Below, piece by piece: positions 3,466 to 30,766 of a stretch of 32,000 nucleotides of DNA. Below the pieces are notes generated by a model. The model was not told where the DNA came from. It saw only the letters and a program-made list of their open reading frames with translations, and made no database searches. Numbering within the stretch: position 1 is the first letter of the stretch; each line of letters begins with the position of its first letter. The stretch is from Candidatus Poseidoniaceae archaeon. Lineage in GTDB: Archaea > Thermoplasmatota > Poseidoniia > Poseidoniales > Poseidoniaceae. Location: assembly GCA_943789275.1 (NCBI GenBank), contig CALSTM010000002.1:390001-422000 (forward strand), written 5' to 3'. The translations under genes and the position numbers were made by a program.

Positions 3466-3474
3466 GGCTTTAAC

Positions 3475-4500: not shown

Positions 4501-4504
4501 AACA

Positions 4505-5413: not shown

Positions 5414-5442
5414 AGGAAGGGCCGCTCGAAGTATTGAATCCA

Positions 5443-8769: not shown

Positions 8770-8778
8770 GTTCTCACC

Positions 8779-10092: not shown

Positions 10093-10125
10093 CACATTCA
10101 CCTCAAATTCAGTTTAGAACTGTAA

Positions 10126-11292: not shown

Positions 11293-11311
11293 GTCTATTT
11301 TCCTCCAATTA

Positions 11312-14060: not shown

Positions 14061-14069
14061 AGTATCACT

Positions 14070-15044
14070 TCATTCAAGCATTTTTTCAACCGCACGTTTG
14101 GTCAGCACTCGAACCATTGATTTACGGTAGCGGGGCGGAAGAGAGGTGTTGTTTACTGGTTTGACACTCTTTCGAATCTCAGCAGCCAAGGTCTTGACAG
14201 AATTCATTCCATCCCATTCTGTTTCGAGAACCGAAGCTACTTCATCTGGGTGGCATCGGGGAATGGATTCAAGGGCTGTGGTGGCCACTTTGAGAGAAGA
14301 TGCATCCCCTGGAATCCATGACGCAGCAACGCCCGCTTCAGGGAAATCCCAAGTGTCACGGACTCGCAGTTTTTGATAAGAGCCAGTTCGGGATGCGCCT
14401 TCGTCAGAAATGGTGATTTTGAGTAAAAACTCACCCTTTTCGAGAACATTCTTCTTCATTCCATCAAGTTGGTAAAACTCTTGCAAAGGCATCGTACGCA
14501 ATCCATTGGGGCCGATAAGGTGGACTTCAGCATCCAGCACCATAAGCGTAGGTGCGATGTCGCCTTGATAGGTTGCCACACACAATGTGTTTTGATTCGG
14601 AATAACCCGACAATCAGCACCTGTACCGCAGTCTGCTTTGTGGCACCAGTCAATAGAACGCCGCCAGTCTTCGCCTTGATTGTACCAGAAACAACGTGTG
14701 TCAAGGCATAAATTACCACCCAACGTAGCATTCCTTCGAATCAACGAAGAGGCGACTTTACTCGCTGCTTCAACAACCAAGGGATGTATTCCGTTTTCAG
14801 TGGTAAGGTCTGCAAGTCGTGCCATGCACCCAATTTCTTGCAACGATAAAGTATCTACACCTTCAATTCGAGCGAGAGATATAACGTGAGGTTTTGGATT
14901 CAAGTGCCATTTGTAATTCGGTAGCAGGTCGGTACCTCCGGCAACCCAATCAAATTCTTCACCCTTTTCCATGAGAGAGCCAGCCAGTGCGCAAGCCTCC
15001 TCAACCGTCGTTGGATTGTGCAAAACAAACGGTGGCATAAGCAT
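14070..15044 (-). CDS. Xanthine dehydrogenase family, FAD-binding medium subunit (CoxM/XdhB-like)
   Basis: F.LHNPTTVEEACAL.. followed by WVAGGTDLLPNYK and ATLGGNL is typical of the FAD_binding_5 domain. Its ATG shares one nt with the large-subunit TGA (TGATG at 15042-15046). Confidence 0.85.
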   Translation of the reverse strand: MLMPPFVLHNPTTVEEACALAGSLMEKGEEFDWVAGGTDLLPNYKWHLNPKPHVISLARIEGVDTLSLQEIGCMARLADLTTENGIHPLVVEAASKVASSLIRRNATLGGNLCLDTRCFWYNQGEDWRRSIDWCHKADCGTGADCRVIPNQNTLCVATYQGDIAPTLMVLDAEVHLIGPNGLRTMPLQEFYQLDGMKKNVLEKGEFLLKITISDEGASRTGSYQKLRVRDTWDFPEAGVAASWIPGDASSLKVATTALESIPRCHPDEVASVLETEWDGMNSVKTLAAEIRKSVKPVNNTSLPPRYRKSMVRVLTKRAVEKMLE

Positions 15045-17857: not shown

Positions 17858-18492
17858 CGAGCGTGGCCTGGAGGCATATTGGGTTCTTCAGGACCCTCTG
17901 GGTGAGGGTCTGGATGTGGGTCGCTTGCAGGCGTCGCAGCCTCAACTTCACCTCGATGAATGGCGGCTGCGCCTTGGATTGAATCAATGATTTGTTGGTA
18001 TCCTGTGCATCGGCAGAGGTTGCCTTCAATGGCACAAGCAATTTCTTTATCGGTCGGTGAATCGTTTTCGTTCAGTAAAGCCTGAGCAGAGATGAGGAAA
18101 CCAGGCGTACAAAACCCGCACTGTGAGCCTCCATGTTCTGCAAAACAAGTCTGAATCGGAGCGAGATGAGCGCCGTGGGCAAGCCCTTCGACTGTCGTAA
18201 TTACTGAGCCTTCAACCTGTCCAGCAAGGCACAGACAGGATAGACGAGGATTGCCATCTATCATCACGGTACAGCAGCCACAGGTTCCGAGGTCACAACC
18301 TCGCTTTACACCCAGAGTTCCAACCTTGTCTCGCAAGACATCGAGCAGAACCGCATTGGATGGAACCAGCACTTCGACTGGAGTCCCGTTGACCTCTGCA
18401 GACCAGACGTTTTTCGCTGGACTTGGTATCATTTCGATATGTTCGCTACCCACCATAATCTGTCGCCAAAGGCGACGTGGTGGACCCCGCAT
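17854..18492 (-). CDS. Xanthine dehydrogenase family [2Fe-2S] small subunit (CoxS-like) with Pro/His/Asp-rich C-terminal tail
   Basis: GCDLGTCGCCTV (plant-type 2Fe-2S), GSQCGFCTPGF and NLCRCTGY (second cluster). The tail is ATPASDPHPDPHPEGPEEPNMPPGHAR. The start could be ATG 18492, 18456 or 18432. Confidence 0.9.
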   Translation of the reverse strand: MRGPPRRLWRQIMVGSEHIEMIPSPAKNVWSAEVNGTPVEVLVPSNAVLLDVLRDKVGTLGVKRGCDLGTCGCCTVMIDGNPRLSCLCLAGQVEGSVITTVEGLAHGAHLAPIQTCFAEHGGSQCGFCTPGFLISAQALLNENDSPTDKEIACAIEGNLCRCTGYQQIIDSIQGAAAIHRGEVEAATPASDPHPDPHPEGPEEPNMPPGHAR

Positions 18493-18530: not shown

Positions 18531-20144
18531 TCAGGAATGAACGGCGGGTGCTGGAGTGGGGCGTTTCTTGACCGAGACGACGTCATCACTCCCGGCTGGA
18601 GGATCAACCCAATCGGGGTCACCGGGAAGAACGAGGCCTTCACCTAAGCCGACCAAACGCCCAGCTAACTGCCGTTGTTGTTTGACGAGCAAGTCCCATT
18701 TGTATTCATCGTCTTTCCATGCTTTCCATCTGCGCATAGCCCGTGAACTGATAACCAATCGAGCGTATAATCGCAAGTGCAGTTTGGCGGATGTCGGCCA
18801 CCACATAAACAGGAGTGAGAACACCAGTAAAGAGGGAAGGAATGTTAACAATTCCAACAACCAATGCTTGACAAGAATCTCGTTCACTGGACTTGCAGTC
18901 GCAAGAAGCATCCATGTGAGAGCAGCAGATGCAACTATCCACCATAGGGGGAAGAAAATAACCGCAGTCAGCACCTTGAGAGTTCCAATGATGGACTGGT
19001 CAGCCCCTCGTTTTTTCATGATTTTTACCGCCGTAGCGTTGGCACGATAAGGGACGAGATTTCCAAAAACAGCGCTCCAGGTAATGAGCCCAAGCATCCA
19101 AACTCCCGCCCACAGCCAAGACAACATGATTTTTGCTGAATCTTTACGGGTCAAATGTTCCGGACGGGCATCGACATCAATCGGTGTAATGTTTCGTTCT
19201 TCGAGTTGCTCAAAATGATGCTCGCAATCTTCAACCAATTTGCCAGTGAGGGACGGATCGTGTTCAGCAAGGTATTCCCAGCCCGCACGGACTCTTCGCG
19301 CACCCATCACGGATTCCGCATAACTTGGTTTGACCAATTTACCGCCCGATTGACGTGCTTTTTCAGCATAGGCCAAACTTCTGCCTTTCCAAATCAGCGT
19401 TCGCTCCCTCCAAGTCGTCTTTGAGAGGCTGGCACGGTTCAATTCCACACCAATTGAATTGGTGACCTCCGTGACCCATTCTCTGTCGATTGTATCCTGT
19501 TCATCGGGATCCTCAACCAAAGAGGGGATCGGTGCAAATTTCATGACCCTCTCCACGATGACTGCAGCCCTTTCACGGAAAGTGTGAGATTCAGAGTAAT
19601 GCAACCCTATCGGCACCAGTTGTGGTTCGGAACGGCCGTTGGCATGAGCTTTTCTTCGTGCAGCGAGTAAGATTCGAGCAGCACCCGAGCGAGCGCGCTT
19701 GACGGATGATTCTGTGTGCGTTGTACCCTCTGGGAAAATAATAAGACGGCCTCCTTCAGCGACAATAGAAGCCACACTGTCCAACTGGTTTTTGTTTCGT
19801 GACTTCGCTCCATCAACATCATCAGAATCTTGTGCCCTTTCGATCGGAACTGCGCCTGCGCCACGGATGAGTCGTCCAAGAAGTGGAACCTTGAACAGCG
19901 TATGTTTGGCAATCATCGATAATCGCCCGGGGAGCGATGCGTGCATCAGCATGGGGTCAATGAGACCACTCGGGTGCCAGGCAATGAAAATAATTCCACC
20001 TTCTTGAGGAAGGTTTTCGTCATCGACAATGTTGATTTCTCGAAACCAAATACTGACGAGTGACCTCGACATACGACGAACCCAACGATAGATTCGGTTG
20101 ATACGAGGGTGACCATCACCTTGAGGGTCTTTCGGCCAGCGCAT
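18531..20144 (-). CDS. Glycerol-phosphate/lysophospholipid acyltransferase family protein (PlsC/LPLAT superfamily, GPAT-like subgroup) with C-terminal membrane domain
   Basis: IIFIAWHPSGLIDP (an H-x5-D variant, as in the Sct1/Gpt2-like LPLAT subgroup as I recall it), LIIFPEGTTH (FPEGT block) and IGLHYS. The C-terminal ~200 aa contain about 4 hydrophobic helices (e.g. WLWAGVWMLGLITWSAVFG, VIFFPLWWIVASAALTWMLLA). Confidence 0.75.
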   Translation of the reverse strand: MRWPKDPQGDGHPRINRIYRWVRRMSRSLVSIWFREINIVDDENLPQEGGIIFIAWHPSGLIDPMLMHASLPGRLSMIAKHTLFKVPLLGRLIRGAGAVPIERAQDSDDVDGAKSRNKNQLDSVASIVAEGGRLIIFPEGTTHTESSVKRARSGAARILLAARRKAHANGRSEPQLVPIGLHYSESHTFRERAAVIVERVMKFAPIPSLVEDPDEQDTIDREWVTEVTNSIGVELNRASLSKTTWRERTLIWKGRSLAYAEKARQSGGKLVKPSYAESVMGARRVRAGWEYLAEHDPSLTGKLVEDCEHHFEQLEERNITPIDVDARPEHLTRKDSAKIMLSWLWAGVWMLGLITWSAVFGNLVPYRANATAVKIMKKRGADQSIIGTLKVLTAVIFFPLWWIVASAALTWMLLATASPVNEILVKHWLLELLTFLPSLLVFSLLFMWWPTSAKLHLRLYARLVISSRAMRRWKAWKDDEYKWDLLVKQQRQLAGRLVGLGEGLVLPGDPDWVDPPAGSDDVVSVKKRPTPAPAVHS

Positions 20145-20201: not shown

Positions 20202-22214
20202 CTACAATGATTTTTCTTCATCATCCACTTGTTGGGTAATGACATCACTCATTTCTTGATCGCCAAGAGCGTTGAAATCAATGCCGGCAAGAGTGCCTTC
20301 CTCTTTGTTTGTAATGACGTTGATGACCAGAAGAACAATCAGGAAAAGAACAACGAAAGCACCCAACCCAAGAAGCATTGAGGTACTGGAAACACCCGTG
20401 TTTGAAGATTGGGTTTCAAACGCAGATGCTGTATCCATAAGCATGATGTTGGCAGTAATCAACGGCGAAGAAGTGTGGCCACCGGTGTCGTTTGCTTTGA
20501 TTCCGCGCATCGAAATCGTATGGTTTCCTTCCAAATCGATTCCCGGTAGGTGTTCCAGTTGGTGGATAATGTCGATTGCAGTTAATGTTCCTGAAGTATC
20601 GCCGTGACCAAAACTGTGAACGTTCGACCAGTCATCTCGCAGGTGGTTACTACGCCATTGAATGGTGTCCACATCTCCGGTTGCTGAATAAGAAAGGACT
20701 TCATTTGGGAACATGTGGATACGGCTATCGGCACCGTTTTCAGTCGAAAGTGTGACTTCCATAGACGAATCAAAGGCATAGTCTCGTTCTGCAGCCTCAT
20801 AGACTGCATCAAGCGCACGAACTTCTCCGTGACCGTAGACGTTGTTTTGTCGGTTCTTGGTCACCAAGTGTTGAGCGTCATTATCGTCGCAACCATCGAT
20901 TCCTGCTGCATCGCCCATGTAAGTACAAGCACGGTATTCAGCAGTTTCTTGCATGATGTTTCGAACTTCAAACGGCGTCAAATCCGGATTCGCTTGGAGC
21001 ATTAAAGCAGCAACACCTGCTGCACCCGGGGTCGCCATAGATGTGCCCGACTTATCGGTGTACTGGTCGCCAGAGTTGTATTGAACAGACATGACGTTTG
21101 AACCAACATAAGCGACATTGGGCTTAACTCGGTTTTCTTCAGTTGGGCCTTGACTCGAATAGATGGCAATGCTGGAGTCTTTGTCAAGTGCTCCAACGGT
21201 AATTGCATCTTCCGCACTTCCAGGTGTCCCGATGGTACCTCGGCCAGCAGAGTTCCCTGCAGCAATGAACAACGAAATGTCGTTGTAAACCATTTCATTG
21301 GCCATTCGATTTACGCTGTCTTCTTCGGATGAGGTCCATTCGATAAGTCCAAACCCGCCGAGAGACATTGAAGCTGCTCGAATGTTGTATTCGTAACGGT
21401 GGTCAACTGTCCATTCCATGCCCGCCATAACGGTGGCAAAGGAGCCGGAGCCTGCTGCATCCAGAACTTTCACACCAACGAGGAAGGCTTGCGGAGCCAT
21501 GCCAATATGGTCGTAATTTGGCGCTCCAGTTCCAGCAGTAGTTCCAGCACAGTGAGAGCCGTGTCCTTGGTCGTCGTATGGGAATACTTCTGTTCCGTTC
21601 ACGAGGCTTGGATTGTTAACCGGGTCGTAGAAGGCGACGACTTTGGGGTCGTTGGTCGTTGGGTCATCGTCGAGGTCGTCGAGACTTGAGTGAGCACCGT
21701 CAATACCGGTATCGATAATGGCAACTGCAGTACCAGAGCCGTCGTATCCCGTATCTGCCCATACTGTATCGACACCATGGAGGACTGCTGCATCTCCATT
21801 GGTCACAGAGAGAAGGCCGTCGAGTTCAAGCATAACGACACCAGGGAGGATGGACGCATCGAGGATTCTGTCCACGGGTACGCGACCTGCCAATGCATCA
21901 ATGCGGTCCAAAGTCCATTCATGGACATAATCAATTTCACGCTCAAGCATTGCGATTTCTTCGCTTCCCGGGGTATGGTCAAAGTCGATGATGAGTGGCA
22001 AGGTGTTGTCTTGGTCAAGGAAGTAAGGGCTATCTTTGTGGACTTCGATCATATCACCGATACCGTTACCGTTTCTGTCGACCGTTGTTTCGACCCACCA
22101 GCCTTCTTCGACGGGTTGTTCTGATGTTTCGGAAACGGGTACAGCCATTGCCAAGGTTGGCAGGACCATTATGCTCAAACAGAGGAATGTGATTGCTTTT
22201 CGTGCCGCAGACAT
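20202..22214 (-). CDS. Secreted subtilisin-like serine peptidase (S8) with C-terminal TM anchor and acidic cytoplasmic tail
   Basis: Catalytic blocks VAIIDTGIDGAH (Asp), GHGSHCAGTTAG (His), IAAGNSAG (oxyanion Asn) and SGTSMATPGAAGVAAL (Ser). ATG 22214 has GGTGA 5 nt upstream and gives the signal peptide MSAARKAITFLCLSIMVLPTLAMA. The C-terminal TM is MLLGLGAFVVLFLIVLLVINVI. The listed start 22265 adds 17 non-signal residues. Confidence 0.88.
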   Translation of the reverse strand: MSAARKAITFLCLSIMVLPTLAMAVPVSETSEQPVEEGWWVETTVDRNGNGIGDMIEVHKDSPYFLDQDNTLPLIIDFDHTPGSEEIAMLEREIDYVHEWTLDRIDALAGRVPVDRILDASILPGVVMLELDGLLSVTNGDAAVLHGVDTVWADTGYDGSGTAVAIIDTGIDGAHSSLDDLDDDPTTNDPKVVAFYDPVNNPSLVNGTEVFPYDDQGHGSHCAGTTAGTGAPNYDHIGMAPQAFLVGVKVLDAAGSGSFATVMAGMEWTVDHRYEYNIRAASMSLGGFGLIEWTSSEEDSVNRMANEMVYNDISLFIAAGNSAGRGTIGTPGSAEDAITVGALDKDSSIAIYSSQGPTEENRVKPNVAYVGSNVMSVQYNSGDQYTDKSGTSMATPGAAGVAALMLQANPDLTPFEVRNIMQETAEYRACTYMGDAAGIDGCDDNDAQHLVTKNRQNNVYGHGEVRALDAVYEAAERDYAFDSSMEVTLSTENGADSRIHMFPNEVLSYSATGDVDTIQWRSNHLRDDWSNVHSFGHGDTSGTLTAIDIIHQLEHLPGIDLEGNHTISMRGIKANDTGGHTSSPLITANIMLMDTASAFETQSSNTGVSSTSMLLGLGAFVVLFLIVLLVINVITNKEEGTLAGIDFNALGDQEMSDVITQQVDDEEKSL

Positions 22215-22334
22215 TTCTTCACCAGCCTCACCCAAACCTCTTCGACATTTGAACCCATTGAACACCGGTGCCTACCGATGGGGAGCGGAGGGCGGTGAAT
22301 GAACTTGAATAAAATACAAAAATACGGGTCAACT

Positions 22335-22342
22335 CTTAAATG
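22335..22342 (+). promoter_or_regulatory. TATA-box-like element (CTTAAATG) for the giant membrane-protein gene, probably leaderless or short-leader
   Basis: This A/T element lies ~30 nt upstream of ATG 22371. There is no SD-like motif before that ATG, which is the typical archaeal geometry of a TATA centred ~26-27 nt upstream of the TSS. An A/T-rich stretch (AATAAAATACAAAAATAC, 22309-22326) lies further upstream in the shared divergent region. Confidence 0.3.
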
Positions 22343-22370
22343 AGGTTTGAGTTACTCCATCTCGATTATC

Positions 22371-25300
22371 ATGCCTGCTCCAAGACGTTCCGCACCACGG
22401 CGTACTGCACCTGTAACCTCGGGTCTCCTCGAAAAAGCAACTGCTCCGGCATCAAATGGAACGATTTACAACGATACAACGCGAGTTGAACAGCCGATGA
22501 TCATTCGAAGTCCGGGGAACCCGATTGATTCAGCCAATCGAGACTTGATGAAATTCTCTCAACTTATCATGATGGGTATTGCCCTTGCCGCAATCTGGGG
22601 TGGATTGTACAACATCGCCTTCGCCGAAGATGCTTCGAACGACGATTTCCTAATTCTGTTCCTCGGAGGGTTTTTGTCTGCAGGAATCGCCATTGGTTGG
22701 ATTGCAGCACAGAGTAAAAAGAACGACTATGTTCTCTTTGAAGTTCAAGACTACATGCTTGGTATCGGCCTCTTCTTTGCAACAATTGGAACCGTTTGGG
22801 GCTCTCGATGGTTGATTGGATTCGTCACAGGCGAAGGTATCACCGATGTCTTCGGAAGTCAAGCTCAATTCTTAGCAGGCGGATGGACAGACCCAGTGAC
22901 AAACGAATGGGTCGACTGGCATCCGAATGCAAAGGCGATCTATGTTCAAACCGCCGCCATCATGGCGCTTATCTTCGCAGAACTCCAACTCTTCAAACGT
23001 TTCAAAGGAGCGACTGGATTTGGTCGGGCTGTCTCAGCATACGCCCCAATTCTGGTGTTGGTTGCTGCTGGAATGGGTCCTTGGATGCGGTGGACTGACA
23101 ATGTCATCTCCTACGAGATGGGACTGTCCCTCATTTTGCTTTGCTTTGCCTCAATGGAATTGGCGCTACGATCCAACAAAGCGTTGAATTTCGTGGTCGT
23201 GGCAGTTGTATCCGGCCTTACTCCTATTTTGTTTGAAGTATTCAATACCAACGCAGAAGTTGGTGGAGAAGGGGGCGCATTGTCCCTGCTCGTATTCATT
23301 ATTGCCATCCAAGGATATTACGCTTCAAGGCAAGAGTTGCGCTCTGAATTAATTCAGAAGGCATCCATCGTCTTGGTCGGTGAAATTGTATTTGCCATGT
23401 TTGTTGCTCGTAGCCAGGACCTCAACCTCCACCTTGGCCCTGTTAAGTCTACGGAACTCGGCATCGACCATCTCTTTGGTTTGAGTGTCGCCTTGTGGAT
23501 TGCTGTTCTCGCTTTTTACTTTCCTGCAGTACAACAACGAAGAGTCCCTTGGATGCCAATTGGTCTAGCAGCAGCCTTGGTCGTTTTGCCAAATGATGGG
23601 AGTGTCATCCCATGGGCTATCTCACTGTTGATGGTGCCTTACATGCTCTTCATCGCAAAAGCAACTCGACGATGGGTTGCAGATTACACATTCACTATGC
23701 TCGCAGTTGCTTACTTCATGACCGATGTTATTGCCAACATAGAGAACATTCCGCTTTCAGGAACCTTTGGTTATGATGGGATGCAGGTCGTGATACCGAT
23801 TGCTCTGTTCATTACCTCTGAATTCGCACGACGTACTGATAAAATATCCTCTTGGACACACTTGGTCATGCTCGCTGCTCTTGTCCTCTCACGAACAATT
23901 ATTCAAGCTGAGGATTGGTTTATGCCATGGATATTTGTTGGCTATATGCTGTACCTCGCCCGGGATGCGTTCTCGAAATTGTCCGAAGAAAGCGAATGGA
24001 AAGAGAAGATGCAGGCGACACTCGTCGTCATTATTGCCAATGCCTCGATGATACTTCTCGCTGTTATTGACCGACTGGATTTACCACAGATTCTCGATAA
24101 GGTTCCCCTTCCAGAATACTTTAATTATCAAATTTTTATTCTTGGGATTATAAGCTATCTCATGCTCTACAAAGCCCGTACTATAGAATTAGATGCGGGT
24201 CTTTTATTCAATTGGACAAAGCGTCTTGCATCAAAAGCTCCGGTTTACAATCCTGAAACGAACACATGGACAACACCAAACCAAGATACTGAACAGGAAG
24301 TTGTGGACTGGCAAGAGAAGAACAGTTGGAGCCAACTCACCCGTATTTCGCTTGTTGTACCTTTCTTCATGATGAGTTTTAGTCTAGTGACGATGTCAGA
24401 CCCCTGGAATGGTTTCGATACCGACGGTTCTCAATCACTGGTGACCCACCCATGGATTTTGATGCTCTTAGCACCTGTTTATGGATTGGTCCATGAAATT
24501 CGAGGAATGGAGACCATTTCCTCAACGGTCCGTTCAGCAGGTGTTTGGGTTTTGTTCGCTATTACGGTACCTGTATCAATTAGTTTCAATATCGTTCGAA
24601 GTGAGATGCTCCAATTACCAGAGTATGTAGATTATGCAATCATACCGGTTCCAATTCTACTCGACCTTATCTTACTCAGTGCTCCGTTGTATGTGAACAG
24701 TTTGATCACAAAACGTGGAATTGACACCGAACATTTGTCCGAAAATGCAGACCGTTGGGCCATGCTCGGCCTGATTGCATTTGCGTGCCTTGATACATCG
24801 GGTGGCTTGCTGTTAATCTCTATGCTTGGACTGGTAACGGTGCGAAGTGTCCGACATCGACATGTCATTCCATTGATGATTTCTCCGGCTGTGTTCATCC
24901 TCTTGCAGTCAACTTGGCTGACTTACACTGGAATCGCTCGAAGATTGTTGGAATCAATGGATGCTCTTTCCTACGACTTCATGGACGACGGTTTCCTCGG
25001 CTTACCACGAATTGGAGGCCTCATTATCTCTGGCCAAATGTTGTATGCCATCATTATGGACAACCAAATGGTGAAAGACAGTTCATCGAACCGTGAACCG
25101 TTACCGTGGTACGGTTTGTGGGGATGGGCGTTGGTAGGAATCCTTGCTGCCTCGTCAAGCATCGGATGGATACCTGCTATCTTCTTTGCTTTCCTCATGG
25201 TCAACTCATGGCTTTCGGGTACCGTCAACTCAATGCCAGTGCTCCACTTGGGATTCATGGTGAGCCTCATTGTTGGAATGGGAGTTGAAGATGTCACCAG

Positions 25301-26486
25301 CACCTTTGCATTGGCCTTCTCTTGGAGCGCTTTAATCACTGGATTTGCAGCGCTTGGATTCAGTTCAATGGGCAGCAATGGAATGTTGTTCAAGAATGTT
25401 CCAGCGGCTCGTGAAGAGTTTTACACCGATGGACGTAAATCTGAAATCATCAACACGCTCTACATCGCCACCTATGTTCTGTTTTTGCTAAGTTACGAAG
25501 CGCTCAATGGAGTTGGTACCATCATCGGCGCTGTGGTCCTCACACGTGATATCGTCACCAAGGGTTATACAAGCGCTGCTTTGTTTGTTCCAGCCATACA
25601 CGCTCTAGCGTTGTTTAACCTTCTTGTGCAAACTGAGATCAACATGGTGCCAGAAGGCGTATTGCTTGGTTCAGTTCTCTTGGTCGAAGGATTAGCTGTA
25701 TCTTGGTTTTCCTTGCAAAACGACAGAGTGTACGACTTCAAATTCTTTGATTGGGAGAACGATGATGTATTCCTGGATTTCATTGACCGACTCGGGATTG
25801 CTGGGGTGTTGTTTTCATTGTCTGGGATCTTTTTCATATTCGCTGATTTCGATCAGTCAACGGTTGGATGGCTGTTAGCAACGGTCGTGCTCATTGCAGT
25901 AGGAATTCAAGGATATTCACCAGAGAACGATGCACGCTGGAGACGTATTATCGGCGGGTACGGCTCGATCTTTGCCTTTATCGGCTTCAGCAGTGGAATA
26001 GACAGCAACACAATGCAATCTCTTTCTTGGATTGGAGTTGGTCTGATTGCACTGGGATGGGGATTCTTAATGATGCAACGTCTTGAAAATGACGAAGCCA
26101 TCTATGAAAACGACCCCGATGCTGTGCCAATGGCCATCGCTTCGAACCAAGCCATTCTCATGGTTGAGCAAGCAGTCGAAATCCCTGAGCCGGTATTCGA
26201 GCAAGAGGATGAAGAACCAACTGAAATGGAAGAAGCTGTTCCTCAACCTGAACCGGTCGTAAAGAAAGCGACTCCAAAGGCTAAAGTCAAGCCAGTGGTG
26301 GAACAAGTTGTTCTCCCCGCTGCCATCGAGACCGGATTAGGATTTGAGATTCGACTACCACCTGGTAAACTCGAAGCCATTGTCAAGTCAATCAGTTCAA
26401 CACCGCATGAAGGTTACAAGCCGGTTGTTGGTTTGCATGAGAGTGGTAAAATTGTCATTGATTGGGTTGAAGTTCATTCAAGCTAA
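22371..26486 (+). CDS. Giant polytopic integral membrane protein (~1371 aa, roughly 35 predicted helices), unknown function
   Basis: A single uninterrupted ORF. The track starts at TTG 22347; ATG 22371 is preferred. The basic N-terminus (PAPRRSAPRRTAP) is followed by near-continuous hydrophobic 15-25-aa segments up to aa ~1190. Next comes an acidic/Pro-rich linker (EIPEPVFEQEDEEPTEMEEAVPQPEP, KKATPKAKVKP) and a small C-terminal domain (GFEIRLPPGKLEAIVKSISS..GKIVIDWVEVHSS). I recognise no catalytic or transport motif. Confidence 0.8.
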   Translation: MPAPRRSAPRRTAPVTSGLLEKATAPASNGTIYNDTTRVEQPMIIRSPGNPIDSANRDLMKFSQLIMMGIALAAIWGGLYNIAFAEDASNDDFLILFLGGFLSAGIAIGWIAAQSKKNDYVLFEVQDYMLGIGLFFATIGTVWGSRWLIGFVTGEGITDVFGSQAQFLAGGWTDPVTNEWVDWHPNAKAIYVQTAAIMALIFAELQLFKRFKGATGFGRAVSAYAPILVLVAAGMGPWMRWTDNVISYEMGLSLILLCFASMELALRSNKALNFVVVAVVSGLTPILFEVFNTNAEVGGEGGALSLLVFIIAIQGYYASRQELRSELIQKASIVLVGEIVFAMFVARSQDLNLHLGPVKSTELGIDHLFGLSVALWIAVLAFYFPAVQQRRVPWMPIGLAAALVVLPNDGSVIPWAISLLMVPYMLFIAKATRRWVADYTFTMLAVAYFMTDVIANIENIPLSGTFGYDGMQVVIPIALFITSEFARRTDKISSWTHLVMLAALVLSRTIIQAEDWFMPWIFVGYMLYLARDAFSKLSEESEWKEKMQATLVVIIANASMILLAVIDRLDLPQILDKVPLPEYFNYQIFILGIISYLMLYKARTIELDAGLLFNWTKRLASKAPVYNPETNTWTTPNQDTEQEVVDWQEKNSWSQLTRISLVVPFFMMSFSLVTMSDPWNGFDTDGSQSLVTHPWILMLLAPVYGLVHEIRGMETISSTVRSAGVWVLFAITVPVSISFNIVRSEMLQLPEYVDYAIIPVPILLDLILLSAPLYVNSLITKRGIDTEHLSENADRWAMLGLIAFACLDTSGGLLLISMLGLVTVRSVRHRHVIPLMISPAVFILLQSTWLTYTGIARRLLESMDALSYDFMDDGFLGLPRIGGLIISGQMLYAIIMDNQMVKDSSSNREPLPWYGLWGWALVGILAASSSIGWIPAIFFAFLMVNSWLSGTVNSMPVLHLGFMVSLIVGMGVEDVTSTFALAFSWSALITGFAALGFSSMGSNGMLFKNVPAAREEFYTDGRKSEIINTLYIATYVLFLLSYEALNGVGTIIGAVVLTRDIVTKGYTSAALFVPAIHALALFNLLVQTEINMVPEGVLLGSVLLVEGLAVSWFSLQNDRVYDFKFFDWENDDVFLDFIDRLGIAGVLFSLSGIFFIFADFDQSTVGWLLATVVLIAVGIQGYSPENDARWRRIIGGYGSIFAFIGFSSGIDSNTMQSLSWIGVGLIALGWGFLMMQRLENDEAIYENDPDAVPMAIASNQAILMVEQAVEIPEPVFEQEDEEPTEMEEAVPQPEPVVKKATPKAKVKPVVEQVVLPAAIETGLGFEIRLPPGKLEAIVKSISSTPHEGYKPVVGLHESGKIVIDWVEVHSS

Positions 26487-27857
26487 TCGCCGTTCAGCAC
26501 CTTGTGAACCGGTTACTGAAGTTACGTAATCGGATTGCGGAGCCGACGGGTAGGCAGACCAATACGTTTCACGCATCTCTTGGTTAGCATCCATGCATGC
26601 AACCACGTCACCTGGCCGTTGGGAGAGTTCAACCGTCTGGTTTAGGTGAGCAATAATCGGTTCGATGTTCGAGAGATTCACCAAACCCCAGCCGGTTTGA
26701 GTACATGGGGCGACCGGCGAGATGGGCATTGTTCCAGAGGTTGGGTCCCAATCAAGTTCGGGATACCAAGCTGAAAGGTTGAGCGCTTCGCGAACTTGGG
26801 AATTTGAAACTTGGAAGGGGTTTCCTTCGTCATCTGAACCGTTGACAAGCATGCCTTCTCGCAATGCAGGGGATGCACCAGAACGGTCATCGTTAAATTC
26901 TGCTCGAAGTGATTCCAGAACGAAAGACAGTATACCAGCAGTTCGAGGTGTGGCGAAAGAAGTTCCCGATGTTTCGTGATACCCTTCGATATCATCGTGG
27001 TTCGGAAGAACCTGAGTCCAATCAGCAGAAATGTCAGGGTACGAGCCAGACATGATTTCTTTTTGGTCATCGCCTTCTTCAGCATAACCTGCAATACCAA
27101 TCGACCATGGTGGCCCAGCTGTGGCGTCTTGAATCGCTGGGGAAGGACTGTTGTCTGCAGCACCTGCATGCATCTTACCATGCTCCACTACAGCGACCTC
27201 AGTTCCACGCTCAATACCCGGTACAGGTAAGGAGCCCGGAGCTCCAAAAGAAGTCGAAATAATATCTACCAAAGGCTGATTCGCCGCTGCAAGTACTGCT
27301 TCAGTACTGAACCCTTCGACGAAGAAGATGACGGCGTTTGGATTCGCATCCAATACAGCACCTGTTACCGCAGAGCCGTGGCCATCGCTTGGGTCGTCGA
27401 GAATGAGAATCTCGCTGTCACCGTCCGGAGAAGAGCCGATAATTTTGGTCCCTGGAAAGTAAACAATATCTGAAGCAGCCAAGGTGTCCCAACATGATGA
27501 CTTGTCCGAATCGTAGCGTTCTTGCCATGTACCCTCAAAGGTTAGCTCGCAAATTTTGTTGACCCCTAATCCCTCCAACAGCCAATCTGGGTACGTCTCA
27601 TTGGTTCGGAAATGGTCGTGGTAGACATTGATACCTGTATCGATTGGCGCAACGACGGAAAAGGCTCTCCAATCATCGTTTGACGATTCGTTTTCACTTA
27701 CACTTTGTTGGTTCGTTTCACCGCCTAAAGACAATGCAAAAAAGGAGAAAATTAAGAGAAAGGTTAGAATGCCAACAGCCACGAGAGATTTCGGAGCTAT
27801 CGAAGACTGCGGTGTGAGTTGAGCCGTCAACGCATCCTCTTCGGGGGTATCCGTCAT
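26478..27857 (-). CDS. Subtilisin-like serine peptidase (S8) with N-terminal signal-anchor
   Basis: VVAPIDTGINVYHDHF (Asp), SDGHGSAVTGAVL (His), GAADNS (Asn) and SGTSFATPRTAGILSFV (Ser). ATG 27857 is preceded by GGAGGGAGAG and yields MTDTPEEDAL..KSLVAVGILTFLLIFSFFALS. The listed 28115 start would run antisense through orn. Confidence 0.82.
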   Translation of the reverse strand: MTDTPEEDALTAQLTPQSSIAPKSLVAVGILTFLLIFSFFALSLGGETNQQSVSENESSNDDWRAFSVVAPIDTGINVYHDHFRTNETYPDWLLEGLGVNKICELTFEGTWQERYDSDKSSCWDTLAASDIVYFPGTKIIGSSPDGDSEILILDDPSDGHGSAVTGAVLDANPNAVIFFVEGFSTEAVLAAANQPLVDIISTSFGAPGSLPVPGIERGTEVAVVEHGKMHAGAADNSPSPAIQDATAGPPWSIGIAGYAEEGDDQKEIMSGSYPDISADWTQVLPNHDDIEGYHETSGTSFATPRTAGILSFVLESLRAEFNDDRSGASPALREGMLVNGSDDEGNPFQVSNSQVREALNLSAWYPELDWDPTSGTMPISPVAPCTQTGWGLVNLSNIEPIIAHLNQTVELSQRPGDVVACMDANQEMRETYWSAYPSAPQSDYVTSVTGSQGAERRLA

Positions 27858-27927: not shown

Positions 27928-28482
27928 ATGGGTGAAGAAAATGAACGCTTGGTTTGGATTGACCTCGAAATGACGGGTCTGGACATAACCAAAGAGTCCA
28001 TCATCGAAATTGCGACGGTCATCACGGATGGTGAATTGAACATTCTGGCAACGGGCCCAAACTTGGCAGTAACGGTGTCAGAAGAACTGCTAGCAGGAAT
28101 GGATGAGTGGAACACATCGCACCATCATGCAAGTGGACTTGTCGAACGGGTTCGTACTCAAGGTGTCTCGTGCTCAAACGCCGAACTCCAAACACTTGAA
28201 TTCCTCAAAAAATGGATACCAAAAGGTGTTGCACCGTTGTGTGGAAACAGCATTTGGAACGACAAAAAGTTCATGGAAAAAGAAATGCCTCTCCTGGTCG
28301 ATTATCTGCACTATCGAATGATCGATGTATCGACGGTGAAAGAACTGGCTCGACGCTGGTACCCTGAAGCAGGGAGATACGAAAAGAAAGGAGCTCATTT
28401 AGCGCTTGATGATGTTCTCGAATCAATTGAAGAATTACGTTACTTTCGAGAGAAAGTATTCATTCCAAAAAAGCAATCATAA
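27928..28482 (+). CDS. orn: Oligoribonuclease (DEDDh 3'-5' exoribonuclease)
   Basis: LVWIDLEMTGLD (Exo I, D-E), EIATVITD, MDEWNTSHHHASGL, GNSIWNDKKFM (Exo II) and GAHLALDDVLESIEELRYFR (Exo III, H..D). The ~184-aa length is typical of Orn/REXO2. Confidence 0.88.
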   Translation: MGEENERLVWIDLEMTGLDITKESIIEIATVITDGELNILATGPNLAVTVSEELLAGMDEWNTSHHHASGLVERVRTQGVSCSNAELQTLEFLKKWIPKGVAPLCGNSIWNDKKFMEKEMPLLVDYLHYRMIDVSTVKELARRWYPEAGRYEKKGAHLALDDVLESIEELRYFREKVFIPKKQS

Positions 28483-29343
28483 TCGCCAATTCGGTGCATT
28501 TGCATCGACGTTCTTGAACGACGCCATCACTTGAGCGACAACAGCCACAGCAATCTCCTCTGGTGATTCCGCCCCGATGTTCAATCCAATAGGGCAAATC
28601 ACAGCGTCGAGGATTTCTTGAGAAATGCCTTCACTTTGGCATGTTTTCTGAAAGGCTTGCCACTTTGACCGGCTACCAATAACCCCTAATCGAGGACCGT
28701 TGACCCCATCAGGTAGAACGTTCTTGACATTGAACATATCAAGCAGTTTGAGAAGACGTTGTTGGTCTTCGCTCCAATCATGACCGAGCAGGAGGACATC
28801 CGAAAAGCGAGTCATCGATTGAAGCGTTTCCTTGGCAAAATAAGTATCAATTGCATCACTGGAACGGTAAACTGCATTCGGGTAAAGGGTTGAATCTGCA
28901 AATTCTGAGCGAGTATCGTGCACAGAATGCTTCCACCCTAATGCGTCAAGAGAGGCTGCAATCGCTTGGCCACAATGCCCTCCGCCCATTATCAACACAT
29001 GCGGCATTGGTATCATCACCTCTAACGAGAGGGTCACTTGACCCCCGCACAATGAATCAAGGGGCGTCACTTCATAGCCCTTCGCACCCTTGTTTAATCC
29101 AAATCGAAGCACTTCACCGAACGGTGCTCGGTGAGAGGCCAGAAGATTACGACATCGAGAGAGTACCTTCATTTCCAAACCTGCACCGCCAACTGTCCCC
29201 GTCCAATCTTGATTCAGGGACATAGCCAGACGAGCGCCTACCTTACCTGGGACGCTTCCAGCTGTCTCAACAACACTGGCAAGAACCACTCGCTGGCCAG
29301 AGGCCAACTGCGACAAAGCCCATGCCATCACCGCTGCAGTCAT
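28477..29343 (-). CDS. xdhC: XdhC/CoxI-family molybdoenzyme maturation (cofactor insertion) protein
   Basis: N-terminal VVLASVVETAGSVPGKVGARLAM (XdhC_CoxI), a central Rossmann-like IMGGGHCGQAIAASLDALGW, and C-terminal ICPIGLNIGAESPEEIAVAV. Confidence 0.85.
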   Translation of the reverse strand: MTAAVMAWALSQLASGQRVVLASVVETAGSVPGKVGARLAMSLNQDWTGTVGGAGLEMKVLSRCRNLLASHRAPFGEVLRFGLNKGAKGYEVTPLDSLCGGQVTLSLEVMIPMPHVLIMGGGHCGQAIAASLDALGWKHSVHDTRSEFADSTLYPNAVYRSSDAIDTYFAKETLQSMTRFSDVLLLGHDWSEDQQRLLKLLDMFNVKNVLPDGVNGPRLGVIGSRSKWQAFQKTCQSEGISQEILDAVICPIGLNIGAESPEEIAVAVVAQVMASFKNVDANAPNWRL

Positions 29344-29388
29344 GTACAGTGCTGCAGGCAGTTACACATACGCTTTACGCAAGCCGCT

Positions 29389-29982
29389 TCACAACTCGTT
29401 GAGGAGTTCTTGTTCATGGTGAGAAAGCGTTTGCAAATCCTCTGGTGTATCAATATTTAATCCAATCAGTGGAGCCTCAACAACGTGTTCTGTGAAGCGT
29501 ACGAGTTCCCTCAAAGAAGCATCAGCCTTTGCGGTCAAAACCGATTCAATAGCCACCGAATCCATGAAGACTGGATGGCCCTTTCGACCTTTGAAAGCGA
29601 GAGCTGCAGATGTTGTCAATGTGAGAAGAGATTTGACGTGAGCAATGGTCCAGCCGGGCCGATCAACCGGTGCAACAATCACGCCTTTGGGAAGGCGACC
29701 CTTCTCACCTGCTAACGACAAAAGCGCACATTGAAGACTTCCAGTTCGGCCCTTTTCAGGGGATGGGTTGGAAAGAACTGTCGAACCAACCGTTTCTTGC
29801 ATGATGTCGAATACAAGTTCTCTCCGGGTGACAATTACGATTGGTGAACAACCGGCTTTGTCCAGTTTTTTGTAGGCCATACCAACGAGTGTTGTGTCAC
29901 CAATTCGGACCAATGATTTGGGCTGTCCAAGTCGTTGGCTTGCACCTGCAGCGAGAATTATTGCTGGGTGAGTCCGAACCAT
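29389..29982 (-). CDS. mocA: MobA-like NTP transferase, probable molybdenum cofactor cytidylyltransferase (MocA-like)
   Basis: MVRTHPAIILAAGASQRLGQPKSL matches the MobA/MocA N-terminal nucleotide-binding loop, and there is a PVDRP motif. ATG 29982 (197 aa) is preferred over ATG 30051, which would add 23 basic residues and butt against the divergent gene's ATG in a CATG palindrome. Confidence 0.75.
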   Translation of the reverse strand: MVRTHPAIILAAGASQRLGQPKSLVRIGDTTLVGMAYKKLDKAGCSPIVIVTRRELVFDIMQETVGSTVLSNPSPEKGRTGSLQCALLSLAGEKGRLPKGVIVAPVDRPGWTIAHVKSLLTLTTSAALAFKGRKGHPVFMDSVAIESVLTAKADASLRELVRFTEHVVEAPLIGLNIDTPEDLQTLSHHEQELLNEL

Positions 29983-30021
29983 GTCAAGTTCACGAGGAAG
30001 TGGGCTTTGTCTTTTGCTCTT

Positions 30022-30029
30022 GATATAGA
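30022..30029. promoter_or_regulatory. TATA-like element (GATATAGA) in the divergent mocA / orphan-gene spacer
   Basis: It is centred ~25 nt upstream of ATG 30050 (+), which fits leaderless geometry, and ~43 nt upstream of ATG 29982 (-). It is the only A/T-rich hexamer in the 67-bp spacer. Confidence 0.3.
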
Positions 30030-30049
30030 CTCGATTTCTCTGGCTCTTC

Positions 30050-30766
30050 ATGTCTCAAACTGGATACAGAATGTCAGAGCCGGAACTTCGTTCCGTTGAA
30101 CTGCTTCAAGGGGTTGTCAGATCGACCTCTGCCACACTTGTTCTACTCACTCAAACCGAAATCAAGGTAAGGGTTCGAGGGGAATCAAAACGTTGGTATG
30201 AAATCTATGCCAAATACCACGGACATGATGATATTTTTGATCATGGTGACAACGGATGGAATTGCTCGGTGAACGCTGGAAGACGTGAGACCGACATCAT
30301 TGATGCCAACGATTATTGCGCTCAATTATGCCTTCATGCTAACGAACATAACCTCCCGATTGGCGACCAGGTCGTTTCTTTGATTCTATCGCTATCCAAC
30401 GACATCAAAACCGCAATGGAGATACCCTTGCTGGCTCAGTTCATTGTATGCACTCGGCAAATGTTGGCGAATATTATGATCTTCCAAGACACAATGATTG
30501 TTACCGAAGAGATGGCCGAATATGGGCACGATTGGATGGAAGAACAGCAAGAAGAGGAATTGCACAACCAAAATGCAGAGTATCAGCACGAACATTTGAT
30601 GGAGGAAATGTATTCGTTAGAAGATTTTCTTGATGAACAGAGAGAAACGGATGAAGAATTGGAGGCGCAAAGGGAAGCCATCGAAGAAAAGAAAAGGAAG
30701 AGAGACGAACAGTTAGCTGATTTTTGGAACCATGTTGCCGACAAACTCCATGATAACGACTCATAG
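30050..30766 (+). CDS. Hypothetical acidic protein with Cys/His-containing N-terminal half and E/Q-rich helical C-terminus
   Basis: A 238-aa ORF with no overlapping alternative. The N-half is RWYEIYAKYHGHDDIFDHGDNGWNCSVNAG..YCAQLCLHANEH. The C-half is EEQQEEELHNQNAEYQHEHLMEEM..EELEAQREAIEEKKRKRDEQ. I recognise no family. The start may be ATG 30050 or ATG 30071. Confidence 0.55.
   Translation: MSQTGYRMSEPELRSVELLQGVVRSTSATLVLLTQTEIKVRVRGESKRWYEIYAKYHGHDDIFDHGDNGWNCSVNAGRRETDIIDANDYCAQLCLHANEHNLPIGDQVVSLILSLSNDIKTAMEIPLLAQFIVCTRQMLANIMIFQDTMIVTEEMAEYGHDWMEEQQEEELHNQNAEYQHEHLMEEMYSLEDFLDEQRETDEELEAQREAIEEKKRKRDEQLADFWNHVADKLHDNDS

What the first reader, a model, noticed from the sequence alone, without database searches (positions are those of the whole stretch)
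20202..27857. Orphan ~1371-aa, ~35-helix membrane protein bracketed by two membrane-tethered S8 peptidases
Seen: 22371..26486 (+) is one uninterrupted ORF that is almost entirely hydrophobic helices (about 35 by eye). It has a ~65-aa basic N-terminus, a ~190-aa acidic/Pro-rich tail and a small terminal beta-looking domain. I see no Walker motif, no WWDYG (AglB-type), no RND/MMPL-style large loops and no peptidase or transferase signature. Across a 156-bp spacer it is divergent from a secreted S8 subtilase that has a C-terminal TM anchor. At its 3' end it overlaps, convergently by 9 nt, a second S8 subtilase that has an N-terminal signal-anchor. Both peptidases keep intact Asp/His/Asn/Ser residues. 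Inference: two surface proteases held at the membrane on either side of an enormous membrane protein could form a proteolysis-coupled uptake, scaffolding or envelope-remodelling unit. Proteins of this size and helix count with no assignable function are rare, so this is the strongest candidate in the window for an undescribed system.
Basis: partly seen in the sequence, partly recalled or inferred. Interest (0 to 1): 0.7.

Follow-up and report, generated by a model that had tools for sequence, protein, structure and literature searches.

The report
Giant 38-helix archaeal membrane protein family
A real, strongly conserved 1371-residue membrane protein with about 38 membrane-spanning segments, found throughout the abundant marine archaeal order Poseidoniales, matches no known protein family or solved fold and in one half of the order sits next to a conserved surface protease, but the proposed three-part "protease-giant-protease" unit is not conserved.

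Summary
22371..26486(+) encodes a 1371-aa protein with about 38 membrane segments, flanked by two membrane-tethered S8 peptidases with intact catalytic motifs.

The protein is not an orphan. It belongs to a family spanning Poseidoniales (Marine Group II), with 283 full-length members retrieved here. dN/dS is 0.08.

It has no relative in Pfam, NCBIfam, PADLOC, PDB sequences or PDB folds (Foldseek). An exhaustive HMM search of 1.84 billion representatives returned only its own family.

The inferred topology is N-in/C-in. A 78-aa acidic linker and a 55-aa ββαββ domain of unmatched fold lie in the cytoplasm.

The triad is not a conserved unit. The downstream peptidase (S8-B) is clade-specific: 32 of 68 loci have it and no sampled locus outside that clade does.

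The upstream peptidase (S8-A) is a conserved Tk-SP-like anchored subtilase found across the order. It is adjacent to the giant gene in three gene arrangements, including one unrelated neighbourhood. It is not adjacent in eight other clades.

The parts
22371..26486 (+). Giant polytopic membrane protein gene (1371 aa + stop), a member of a family that spans Poseidoniales
   Evidence: ORF. More than 240 and more than 220 full-length homologues found in two searches. dN/dS 0.08. AF2 core model pLDDT 80.5, pTM 0.65.
22371..22529 (+). Cytoplasmic N-terminal tail (aa 1-53), basic, starting with the conserved M-x-A-P-R-R motif
   Evidence: Composition. Positive-inside analysis. N-termini compared across clades.
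22530..26084 (+). Membrane core (aa 54-1238): about 38 membrane segments with short, mostly acidic external loops and Arg/Lys-rich cytoplasmic loops
   Evidence: AF2 helices plus hydropathy. Family-averaged K+R is 43 in 'in' loops and 9.7 in 'out' loops.
23541..23678 (+). Most conserved element: short-helix hairpin aa 391-436 with the near-universal motifs R-x-P-x-M-P-x-G-L-A ... W415 ... Y424 ... R433-x-W-V
   Evidence: These columns are >=93% identical across 29 sequences spanning all clades. The helices are 12 and 16 residues long.
24741..24857 (+). Second conserved short-helix hairpin, aa 791-829, with the signature D808-x-(S)-G-G at its tip
   Evidence: D.SGG is present in 262 of 283 full-length members. 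D808, G811 and G812 are >=93% conserved across clades.
26085..26318 (+). Cytoplasmic acidic/Pro-rich linker (aa 1239-1316), poorly conserved
   Evidence: D+E 19, P 11 in 78 aa. Lowest conservation and most gaps in the family alignment.
26319..26483 (+). C-terminal 55-aa ββαββ domain (aa 1317-1371), inferred to be cytoplasmic, with no match to a known fold
   Evidence: AF2 pLDDT 88.5. Foldseek against PDB: best E=0.75, TM 0.28. PDB profile and Pfam searches found nothing significant. The domain is conserved in MGIIb-type members and missing in one 1242-1258-aa sub-clade.
22215..22370 (.). 156-bp divergent spacer. It carries a conserved CGGGTSAA-N3-4-TTAA element about 35-50 nt upstream of the giant ATG. 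On the S8-A side it carries a conserved TTGAA-N4-TTGAA element plus a GGTGA Shine-Dalgarno-like site. The middle of the spacer is not conserved.
   Evidence: Alignment of spacers from 18 loci. Reading these elements as promoter or ribosome-binding sites is an inference.
20202..22214 (-). S8-A: signal peptide, propeptide-like region, subtilisin domain, C-terminal domain, TM anchor and acidic cytoplasmic tail. It is the conserved neighbour of the giant gene in MGIIa-type lineages.
   Evidence: Pfam S8 E=1e-46. Catalytic motifs and TM segments. Closest solved relative 3afg/9ues, E about 1e-49. Adjacency statistics. dN/dS 0.02.
26478..27857 (-). S8-B: a divergent S8 peptidase with an N-terminal signal-anchor. 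It is a clade-specific neighbour and not a conserved part of any unit.
   Evidence: Pfam S8 25.6 bits. Catalytic motifs. No PDB hit at E<=0.01. Present in 32 of 68 loci. Absent from L081-L093.
18531..20144 (-). Context only: PlsC-type acyltransferase with a C-terminal membrane extension, downstream of S8-A on the same strand. It is absent from the Poseidonia-type clade.
   Evidence: Pfam Acyltransferase E=5e-22. Present in 32 loci and absent in 27.
13095..18492 (-). Context only: molybdenum hydroxylase genes of the xanthine dehydrogenase/CO dehydrogenase family (2Fe-2S, Mo-binding and FAD subunits). This is the older syntenic left-hand neighbour of the giant gene.
   Evidence: Pfam. The same arrangement occurs in L087 and L088.
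27928..30051 (.). Context only: RNase T/oligoribonuclease (+), XdhC (-) and MobA-like (-). XdhC is the older syntenic right-hand neighbour.
   Evidence: Pfam..

Best explanation
What it is (shown). The ORF encodes a functional giant integral membrane protein that defines a family spread across the archaeal order Poseidoniales (MGII). The family has not been described. The protein has about 38 membrane segments. Both ends are in the cytoplasm: a basic N-tail at one end, and an acidic linker with a small ββαββ domain at the other. Very little protein is exposed outside the cell.

How it most likely works (inferred, low confidence). It is a transport-type membrane machine that acts with the neighbouring anchored subtilase S8-A at the cell surface. 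S8-A is held at the outer face by its C-terminal helix and cleaves extracellular or envelope proteins. The giant protein supplies the membrane pathway, most plausibly for uptake of the products, and possibly the docking site for the S8-A anchor.

Candidate sites (inferred). The two near-universal short-helix hairpins (R-x-P-x-M-P-x-G-L-A and D-x-S-G-G) and the conserved membrane-embedded acidic residues (for example D765 and D808) are the candidate substrate or ion pathway.

What is not part of it. S8-B is a later, clade-specific addition and not part of a conserved unit.
For: The gene is real and constrained.
- dN/dS is 0.08.
- 283 full-length members of 1218-1812 aa keep the same architecture across MGIIa- and MGIIb-type clades.

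Topology.
- About 38 membrane segments come from AF2 (pLDDT 80.5) combined with hydropathy.
- Family-averaged K+R is 43 on the inferred cytoplasmic side and 9.7 outside.

Features typical of transporters or enzymes rather than a passive scaffold.
- Near-universal polar and charged residues lie within or at the edge of the membrane: R146, Q193, R391, R433, R721, D765, D808, W-R-R.
- Two hairpins have helices of only 12-17 residues with conserved tips.

Link to S8-A.
- The orthologue is adjacent in 61 of 63 loci of the window clade.
- It is tandem, S8 then giant with a 50-70 bp gap, in L077, L081 and L090.
- It is tandem, giant then S8 with a 73 bp gap, in L085. That neighbourhood is entirely different, and the S8 there is a full-length orthologue at 53-56% identity with the same domain order.
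- S8-A is highly conserved, with dN/dS 0.02 and about 60% identity to Thalassarchaeaceae orthologues.
- Subtilase genes are reported as highly transcribed in both Poseidoniales families (PMC9723583).
Against: - No homology or fold match ties the protein to any transporter.
- No internal repeat typical of many transporters was detected.
- Eight sampled clades carry the giant gene without an S8 neighbour.
- The MGIIb S8-A orthologue that was examined has unrelated neighbours. Adjacency is therefore not required.
- Within MGIIa the whole 20-kb block is collinear. Most of the adjacency count thus reflects one ancestral event, and inverting a single gene in place does not break adjacency.
- The independent evidence rests mainly on one clade (L085).
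- A 38-segment peptide importer has no precedent that I know of.
- Physical contact between the two proteins was not tested.
Confidence: 0.35

Rival explanations
1. The giant protein is an autonomous housekeeping membrane protein of Poseidoniales, for example a membrane or envelope biogenesis, lipid-handling or structural protein in a Thermoplasmatota lineage. Its function has nothing to do with peptidases. The S8-A adjacency is a historical accident that conserved gene order has preserved.
For: - Both genes occur across the order but are unlinked in MGIIb-type and several other clades.
- The whole block from MoxR through Cox to XdhC is collinear even between MGIIa and MGIIb, so gene order in this region is simply stable.
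- The two genes are divergently transcribed in the window, and the spacer shows no shared conserved operator.
- The giant evolves much faster than S8-A (30-89% identity against 59-97%).
Against: - The S8-A orthologue is again next to the giant, in a different order and an unrelated neighbourhood, in L085.
- It is co-directional with a 50-70 bp gap in L077, L081 and L090, which looks like an operon.
- By rough estimate, chance re-association of one specific gene in a genome of roughly 1800 genes has a probability of about 0.1%.
Confidence: 0.3
2. The giant protein is an export or assembly platform and S8-A is its dedicated processing protease. This would be analogous to the anchored subtilase mycosin within the type VII secretion membrane complex, or to LanP-type leader peptidases beside their exporters. 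The giant would move or hold a surface protein that S8-A matures.
For: - S8-A has the mycosin-like layout of signal peptide, S8 domain and C-terminal TM anchor. Its best NCBIfam hit is T7SS mycosin (88 bits).
- S8-A is unusually conserved for a nutritional protease (dN/dS 0.02).
- In L085 the pair is followed, 10 bp downstream and co-directionally, by a 1589-aa protein. Very large surface-type proteins flank S8-A in L093.
Against: - The mycosin hit is far below the family cut-off (88 against 278.75 bits).
- No ATPase or other energising component is conserved nearby.
- The giant protein has no similarity to any secretion component.
- No large candidate substrate gene is conserved next to the pair in MGIIa.
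Confidence: 0.12
3. The giant protein belongs functionally to the molybdenum hydroxylase cluster that surrounds it (CoxS/L/M-like, XdhC, MobA). It could be a substrate importer or a membrane docking partner for that enzyme.
For: - The arrangement XdhC(-) | giant(+) | CoxS(-) is found in MGIIa and in a Thalassarchaeaceae contig with no intervening genes (L088). It is also found in another Thermoplasmatota lineage (L087).
- On the NJ tree this arrangement spans the root of the family.
- In a different context (L083/L084) a MoCF_biosynth gene lies two genes upstream.
Against: - The giant gene is always on the opposite strand to the Mo genes, so it is not co-transcribed with them.
- No His or Cys is conserved in the membrane core, which argues against haem or Fe-S electron transfer.
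- Six clades have the giant with no Mo gene nearby.
- The wider region is collinear anyway.
Confidence: 0.06
4. One reading: both tethered peptidases and the giant protein form one three-part proteolysis-coupled unit.
For: In the window clade all three genes are tightly packed, with a 156-bp spacer and a 9-nt overlap. All are under purifying selection.
Against: - S8-B is missing from 36 of 68 loci and from all distant clades.
- It is unrelated to S8-A beyond the S8 motifs.
- It is convergent with the giant gene.
Confidence: 0.05

Closest known systems
Cell-envelope proteinase plus peptide uptake in lactic acid bacteria (anchored S8 proteinase PrtP feeding the Opp transporter). Known to me from the literature, not tested here.
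   Same: A surface-tethered subtilase works beside a membrane uptake system. This is the logic of the best explanation.
   Different: Opp is an ABC transporter with a binding protein and ATPases. The giant protein has no ABC, Walker or binding-protein features and is a single chain of about 38 segments. The pairing here is inferred from gene order only.
Mycosin (MycP) in the type VII secretion membrane complex. Family TIGR03921; the role of MycP is from my own knowledge.
   Same: S8-A shares the layout of signal peptide, S8 domain and C-terminal TM anchor. Its best NCBIfam match is this family. In both cases an anchored subtilase is genetically tied to polytopic membrane protein(s).
   Different: The score of 88 bits is far below the 278.75 cut-off, so S8-A is not a mycosin. 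No EccB/C/D/E-like proteins or ATPase are present. The organism is an archaeon.
Tk-SP-type subtilisin-like protease of Thermococcus (PDB 3afg; also 9ues)
   Same: It is the closest solved relative of the S8-A catalytic domain (E about 1e-49, residues 149-429).
   Different: S8-A carries an extra C-terminal region, a TM anchor and an acidic cytoplasmic tail.
Other giant polytopic proteins of unknown function (for example Pfam DUF2339), and large multi-helix systems such as RND/MMPL, Mrp/complex-I antiporter subunits, GT-C glycosyltransferases and AglB
   Same: They have many membrane helices and few soluble domains.
   Different: No Pfam or NCBIfam model of any of these matches at E<=1. There is no WWD(Y)G motif and there are no large external loops. 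Foldseek against PDB returned only α-solenoid noise with TM<=0.25.

Membership tests
Peptidase S8 (subtilase), for S8-A | Pfam PF00082 above the gathering score, with Asp/His/Asn/Ser catalytic motifs | tested here: met
   159.8 bits against a cut-off of 21.8. Motifs DTG, HGSH, AAGN and GTSMATP are present. PDB subtilisins match at E down to 1e-49.
Peptidase S8 (subtilase), for S8-B | Pfam PF00082 above the gathering score, with catalytic motifs | tested here: met
   25.6 bits against a cut-off of 21.8, which is marginal. Motifs DTG, HGS, ADN and GTSFATP are present. There is no PDB sequence hit at E<=0.01, so this is a very divergent member.
Type VII secretion mycosin (TIGR03921), for S8-A | Score at or above the curated equivalog cut-off | tested here: not met
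   88.2 bits against a cut-off of 278.75.
AglB/STT3-type oligosaccharyltransferase and other GT-C enzymes, for the giant protein | Match to the STT3/GT-C Pfam models, the WWDYG motif, and a large external C-terminal domain | tested here: not met
   No Pfam hit at E<=1. No WWD motif. The C-terminal domain is 55 aa and inferred to be cytoplasmic.
DUF2339 and other Pfam families of giant membrane proteins, for the giant protein | Any Pfam-A model matching | tested here: not met
   Zero Pfam families at E<=1. The precomputed Pfam column is empty for all 240 homologues listed.
RND/MMPL, Mrp/complex-I antiporter-like, ABC, MFS and other known transporter folds, for the giant protein | Sequence model match or structural similarity to a solved member | tested here: not met
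Rhomboid-type intramembrane serine protease, for the giant protein (considered because of the x-S-G-G motif) | GxSG serine together with a conserved catalytic histidine in a later helix, and a Pfam Rhomboid match | tested here: not met
   No His is conserved in the core across clades. The Ser of D-x-S-G-G is itself below 93% conserved. There is no Pfam hit.
Known anti-phage defence systems (PADLOC), considered because of the weak IteS/IetS S8 hits | The giant protein or the gene set matches a PADLOC system | tested here: not met
   The giant protein matches no model. S8-A matches only the generic 'subtilase' model, plus IetS at 12-22 bits.
The Poseidoniales giant-protein family itself, as defined here | 1200-1800 aa. 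About 38 membrane segments. Motifs R-x-P-x-M-P-x-G-L-A, D-x-x-G-G and W-R-R. An acidic linker followed by a C-terminal ββαββ domain. | tested here: met
   The window protein has all of these features. It is 34-96% identical over its full length to family members.

The most novel reading that the evidence does not exclude
The giant protein is the founding member of a structurally new class of single-chain membrane machine with about 38 segments, specific to Marine Group II archaea. It physically teams up with a conserved anchored subtilase to form a previously unknown archaeal system, either for taking up the products of surface proteolysis or for exporting and maturing surface proteins.
Probability: 0.2. 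Interest if true: 0.8.

Novelty: categorically new. Interest (0 to 1): 0.55.

Why it matters
Poseidoniales (Marine Group II) are among the most abundant archaea in surface oceans. They remain uncultured and are thought to live largely on proteins and other high-molecular-weight organic matter.

A giant membrane protein conserved across the order, with no recognisable relatives, is one of the larger blank spots in their cell biology. In half of the order it is genetically tied to a conserved subtilase; subtilase genes are reported as highly transcribed in this order.

If the two proteins act together, the pair offers a concrete, testable handle on how these cells couple surface proteolysis to the membrane. 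If they do not, the protein is still a candidate new membrane fold and a lineage marker.

The negative result also matters. The eye-catching 'two proteases around a giant' layout is a local, clade-specific arrangement and not a conserved system.

Tried and rejected
Searches that found nothing for the giant protein:
- Pfam, NCBIfam and PADLOC scans.
- PDB sequence-profile search with a 28-sequence alignment: best E=1.9.
- Foldseek of the AF2 core against PDB: only α-solenoid noise.
- Exhaustive profile search of 1.84 billion representatives: 177 hits, all from the same family or fragments of it, with no bridge to another family.

Internal repeats:
- hhalign of all non-overlapping pairs of 160-aa slices of the family alignment gave a maximum probability of 2.9%. 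A duplicated-module architecture is therefore not detectable.

C-terminal domain:
- The PDB profile search gave a best E of 1.2, to an Arc-like ribbon-helix-helix β-strand/helix segment. I judged this not significant.
- Pfam gave E>=0.11. Foldseek against PDB gave E>=0.75.

Libraries that were unavailable:

Ideas tested and dropped:
- The S8-B orthologue might be the short S8 gene near the MGIIb S8-A locus. It shows no similarity.
- The basic N-tail of the giant or the acidic tail of S8-A might track adjacency. Neither shows a clean correlation.
- The divergent spacer might hold a shared operator. It holds only two separate conserved elements.

Functions considered and rejected:
- Rhomboid-like serine protease, presenilin/GxGD protease, HExxH metalloprotease, aquaporin-like NPA channel, Walker ATPase and GT-C transferase. 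The defining motifs are absent or not conserved in each case.

Literature:
- The searches found no description of this protein. They found only general statements on Poseidoniales peptidases and lineage-specific hypothetical membrane proteins.

Full report
**1. Observation**

- The giant ORF is 22371..26486(+) and encodes 1371 aa. Homologues begin MAAPRR/MPAPRR, so the ATG at 22371 is the start, not the TTG at 22347.
- Hydropathy finds hydrophobic stretches along the whole chain. Combined with AF2 secondary structure it gives 32 clear TM helices and 6 short hydrophobic helices, so about 38 membrane segments.
- The N-terminal tail is 53 aa and basic. After the last helix come a 78-aa acidic/Pro-rich linker and a 55-aa terminal domain.
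- No Walker A, WWD(Y)G, HExxH, GxGD or NPA motif is present.
- S8-A (20202..22214, -) is a clear subtilase. Pfam gives E=1e-46. It has a signal peptide, a C-terminal TM anchor, an acidic tail and intact D/H/N/S motifs.
- S8-B (26478..27857, -) is a very divergent S8. Pfam gives 25.6 bits against a cut-off of 21.8, and there is no PDB hit. It has an N-terminal signal-anchor and intact motifs.
- The 156-bp spacer and the 9-nt convergent overlap are as described.
- All three genes are under strong purifying selection, with dN/dS 0.02-0.08 against L001 and L002.

**2. Not an orphan, but unassignable**

- A word-indexed search found at least 241 homologues. Nearly all are full length (about 1300-1400 aa) and 34-96% identical. 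The few that carry names are 'Candidatus Poseidoniaceae', 'Poseidonia' or 'Euryarchaeota archaeon'.
- A search with the most divergent genomic copy (L077) opened a second large clade.
- An exhaustive HMM search of 1.84 billion 50%-identity representatives found only 177 hits. All are members or fragments of this family. The weakest full-length ones (about 100-150 bits) include proteins named Thalassarchaeaceae, which is MGIIb.
- The family therefore spans the order Poseidoniales and close Thermoplasmatota. I found no evidence for it anywhere else.
- 283 full-length members (1218-1812 aa) are in hand.
- None carries a Pfam domain. The window protein matches nothing in Pfam, NCBIfam or PADLOC. 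A family profile finds nothing in PDB sequences, with a best E of 1.9.

**3. Structure and topology**

- AF2 on residues 51-1245 with a 97-sequence alignment gave pLDDT 80.5 and pTM 0.65. The model is almost entirely helical, with two small β-hairpins.
- No internal sequence repeat is detectable.
- I assigned sides to the loops in alternation, starting from a cytoplasmic N-terminus. Family-averaged K+R is then 43 in the 'in' loops and 9.7 in the 'out' loops. This is a strong positive-inside signal for a 38-segment, N-in/C-in topology.
- By inference, the acidic linker and C-terminal domain are cytoplasmic. The external face consists of short acidic loops, the largest about 33 aa.
- The C-terminal domain folds confidently (pLDDT 88.5) as ββαββ. 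It has no significant match in PDB by fold or profile, or in Pfam. It is retained in MGIIb-type members and lost in one sub-clade.
- Columns at least 93% identical across all clades define the family signature:
  - R391-x-P-x-M-P-x-G-L-A, then W415, Y424 and R433-x-W-V, in a hairpin of 12- and 16-residue helices;
  - D765;
  - D808-x-x-G-G at the tip of a second short hairpin;
  - W1190-R-R.
- No His or Cys is conserved in the core.

**4. Gene neighbourhood**

I took 80 loci from distinct GTDB species and located every window neighbour in them by tblastn.
- The entire block of about 20 kb is collinear.
- S8-A is divergent and adjacent in 61 of 63 informative loci.
- S8-B is present in 32 of 68 loci and absent in 36. 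The 36 are all the loci whose giant protein is 32-39% identical to the window's (the 'Poseidonia sp.' clade). There the RNase T gene follows the giant gene directly.
- The acyltransferase shows the same split (32 present, 27 absent).

Beyond this clade I read individual contigs.
- L077, L081 and L090 carry the S8-A orthologue on the same strand, 50-70 bp upstream of the giant gene. They have no S8-B.
- L085 belongs to a deep clade. There the giant is followed 73 bp downstream by a co-directional S8, in a completely different neighbourhood. That S8 is a full-length S8-A orthologue at 53-56% identity with the same domain order.
- Eight other clades have no S8 neighbour: L082, L083/84, L086, L087, L088, L089, L091 and L092.
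- S8-A orthologues at about 60% identity are abundant in Thalassarchaeaceae. The one examined has unrelated neighbours.
- S8-B has no counterpart in any of these loci.
- On an approximate NJ tree the S8-A adjacency occupies both main MGIIa-type clades, with losses, plus the L085 lineage. The arrangement XdhC | giant | CoxS spans the root.

**5. Interpretation**

- The triad is not a conserved unit. S8-B is a late, clade-specific neighbour.
- The S8-A link is real but moderate. Most of the count reflects one ancestral juxtaposition inside a stable block, and inverting a single gene in place does not break adjacency.
- The tandem arrangement with an operon-like gap, and the re-occurrence in a different order and context (L085), are hard to explain by chance. 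I put functional coupling at roughly 50-60%.
- Several features fit a transport-type protein or enzyme better than a passive scaffold: conserved intramembrane and interfacial polar residues, short-helix hairpins with conserved tips, and minimal soluble mass.
- The best-supported mechanism, held with low confidence (0.35), is a transport-type membrane partner of the anchored subtilase. The subtilase cleaves substrates outside and the giant protein provides the membrane pathway and possibly the docking site.
- What is shown: the architecture, the conservation and the gene-order pattern. What is inferred: the topology, the interaction and the transport function.

**6. Rivals**

- (a) An autonomous housekeeping membrane protein whose S8 adjacency is historical (0.30).
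- (b) An export or maturation platform with S8-A as processing protease, by analogy with mycosin/T7SS or LanP/LanT (0.12). S8-A scores 88 bits against a mycosin cut-off of 279, so it is not a member of that family.
- (c) A functional tie to the surrounding molybdenum hydroxylase cluster (0.06). The synteny is old. However, the giant gene is always on the opposite strand, the core has no redox-type ligands, and the block is collinear anyway.

**7. Comparison with known systems, and novelty**

- S8-A is an ordinary, if unusually conserved, Tk-SP-like subtilase.
- The giant protein fails every membership test I could apply. These were AglB/GT-C, DUF2339, RND/MMPL, Mrp-like, ABC, rhomboid and defence systems.
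- I found no description of it in the literature searched. PMC9258230 notes that Poseidoniales-specific modules contain many hypothetical membrane proteins and two new conserved peptidase families, but does not describe this protein in its main text.
- I therefore rate the protein family as outside every known kind. Two caveats apply: sensitive fold comparison could not be run, and there is no functional evidence.
- Interest is 0.55. The family is real, abundant and very unusual in size and helix count. Its mechanism is unproven, and the most striking part of the original claim does not hold.

Noticed in passing
window 13095-18492 and 28477-30051; L087, L088: A molybdenum hydroxylase gene set (2Fe-2S, Mo-binding and FAD subunits, then XdhC and a MobA-like gene, all on the minus strand) is split by the opposite-strand giant gene. 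In a Thalassarchaeaceae contig (L088) CoxS and XdhC abut the giant gene directly, so this interruption predates the MGIIa/MGIIb split.
   Followed up: partly
P0440, P0446, P0463 (S8-A orthologues): Some Thalassarchaeaceae S8-A orthologues end in a PGF-CTERM-like signal (…SPGFTPGFASVVAGASLLGAAMLGRDKDD) in place of the TM anchor and long acidic tail. This suggests archaeosortase-type lipid anchoring in those lineages.
   Followed up: no
L042 (NZEQ01000021.1) and P0501: A contig labelled 'Verrucomicrobiales bacterium' carries the full Poseidoniales gene block. An S8-A orthologue is labelled 'Acidimicrobiaceae bacterium'. Both are probably mis-binned archaeal contigs in public MAGs.
   Followed up: no
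L001 and L004 (both from MAG SI034_bin128): One MAG holds two copies of the whole locus on different contigs. The giant proteins are 89% and 87% identical to the window's. This is most likely two co-binned strains, not a duplication.
   Followed up: no
P0218-P0240 (1242-1258 aa) and P0283 (1812 aa); L086: There are two family variants. One sub-clade lacks the C-terminal ββαββ domain. One Ala/Gly-rich member (P0283) carries several hundred extra residues.
   Followed up: no
window 18531-20144 (-): A PlsC-type (bacterial-style) acyltransferase with a long C-terminal membrane extension lies downstream of S8-A on the same strand with a 57-bp gap. It is present only in part of the family's range. 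It may be relevant to the reported bacterial-type lipid genes of MGII (that report is from my own knowledge).
   Followed up: partly
window 22215-22370 and orthologous spacers: Two short DNA elements are conserved across distant loci. CGGGTSAA-N3-4-TTAA lies upstream of the giant gene. TTGAA-N4-TTGAA followed by a GGTGA site lies upstream of S8-A. The GTG-start extension of the S8-A ORF (22215-22265) is probably 5' leader and not coding sequence.
   Followed up: partly
L085 14088-18857; L092 1-1873; L093 1-2583 and 14111-17911: Very large (900 to more than 2400 aa) surface-type proteins recur near the giant gene or S8-A in distant clades. They carry faint Ldl_recept_a, FG-GAP/CARDB or DUF7151 matches. 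They are possible S8-A substrates.
   Followed up: no
window 7843-12961 (-): A MoxR-type AAA ATPase, a DUF58 protein, a DUF4350 protein and an unannotated 308-aa ORF form a cluster immediately beyond the cox-like genes. An AAA_3 gene occupies the same position in L088.
   Followed up: no
window 2668-6525 (+): An archaeal-type shikimate pathway run: a DeoC-family aldolase, 3-dehydroquinate synthase II, a GHMP-type kinase and chorismate synthase. It is ordinary and unrelated to the finding.
   Followed up: no
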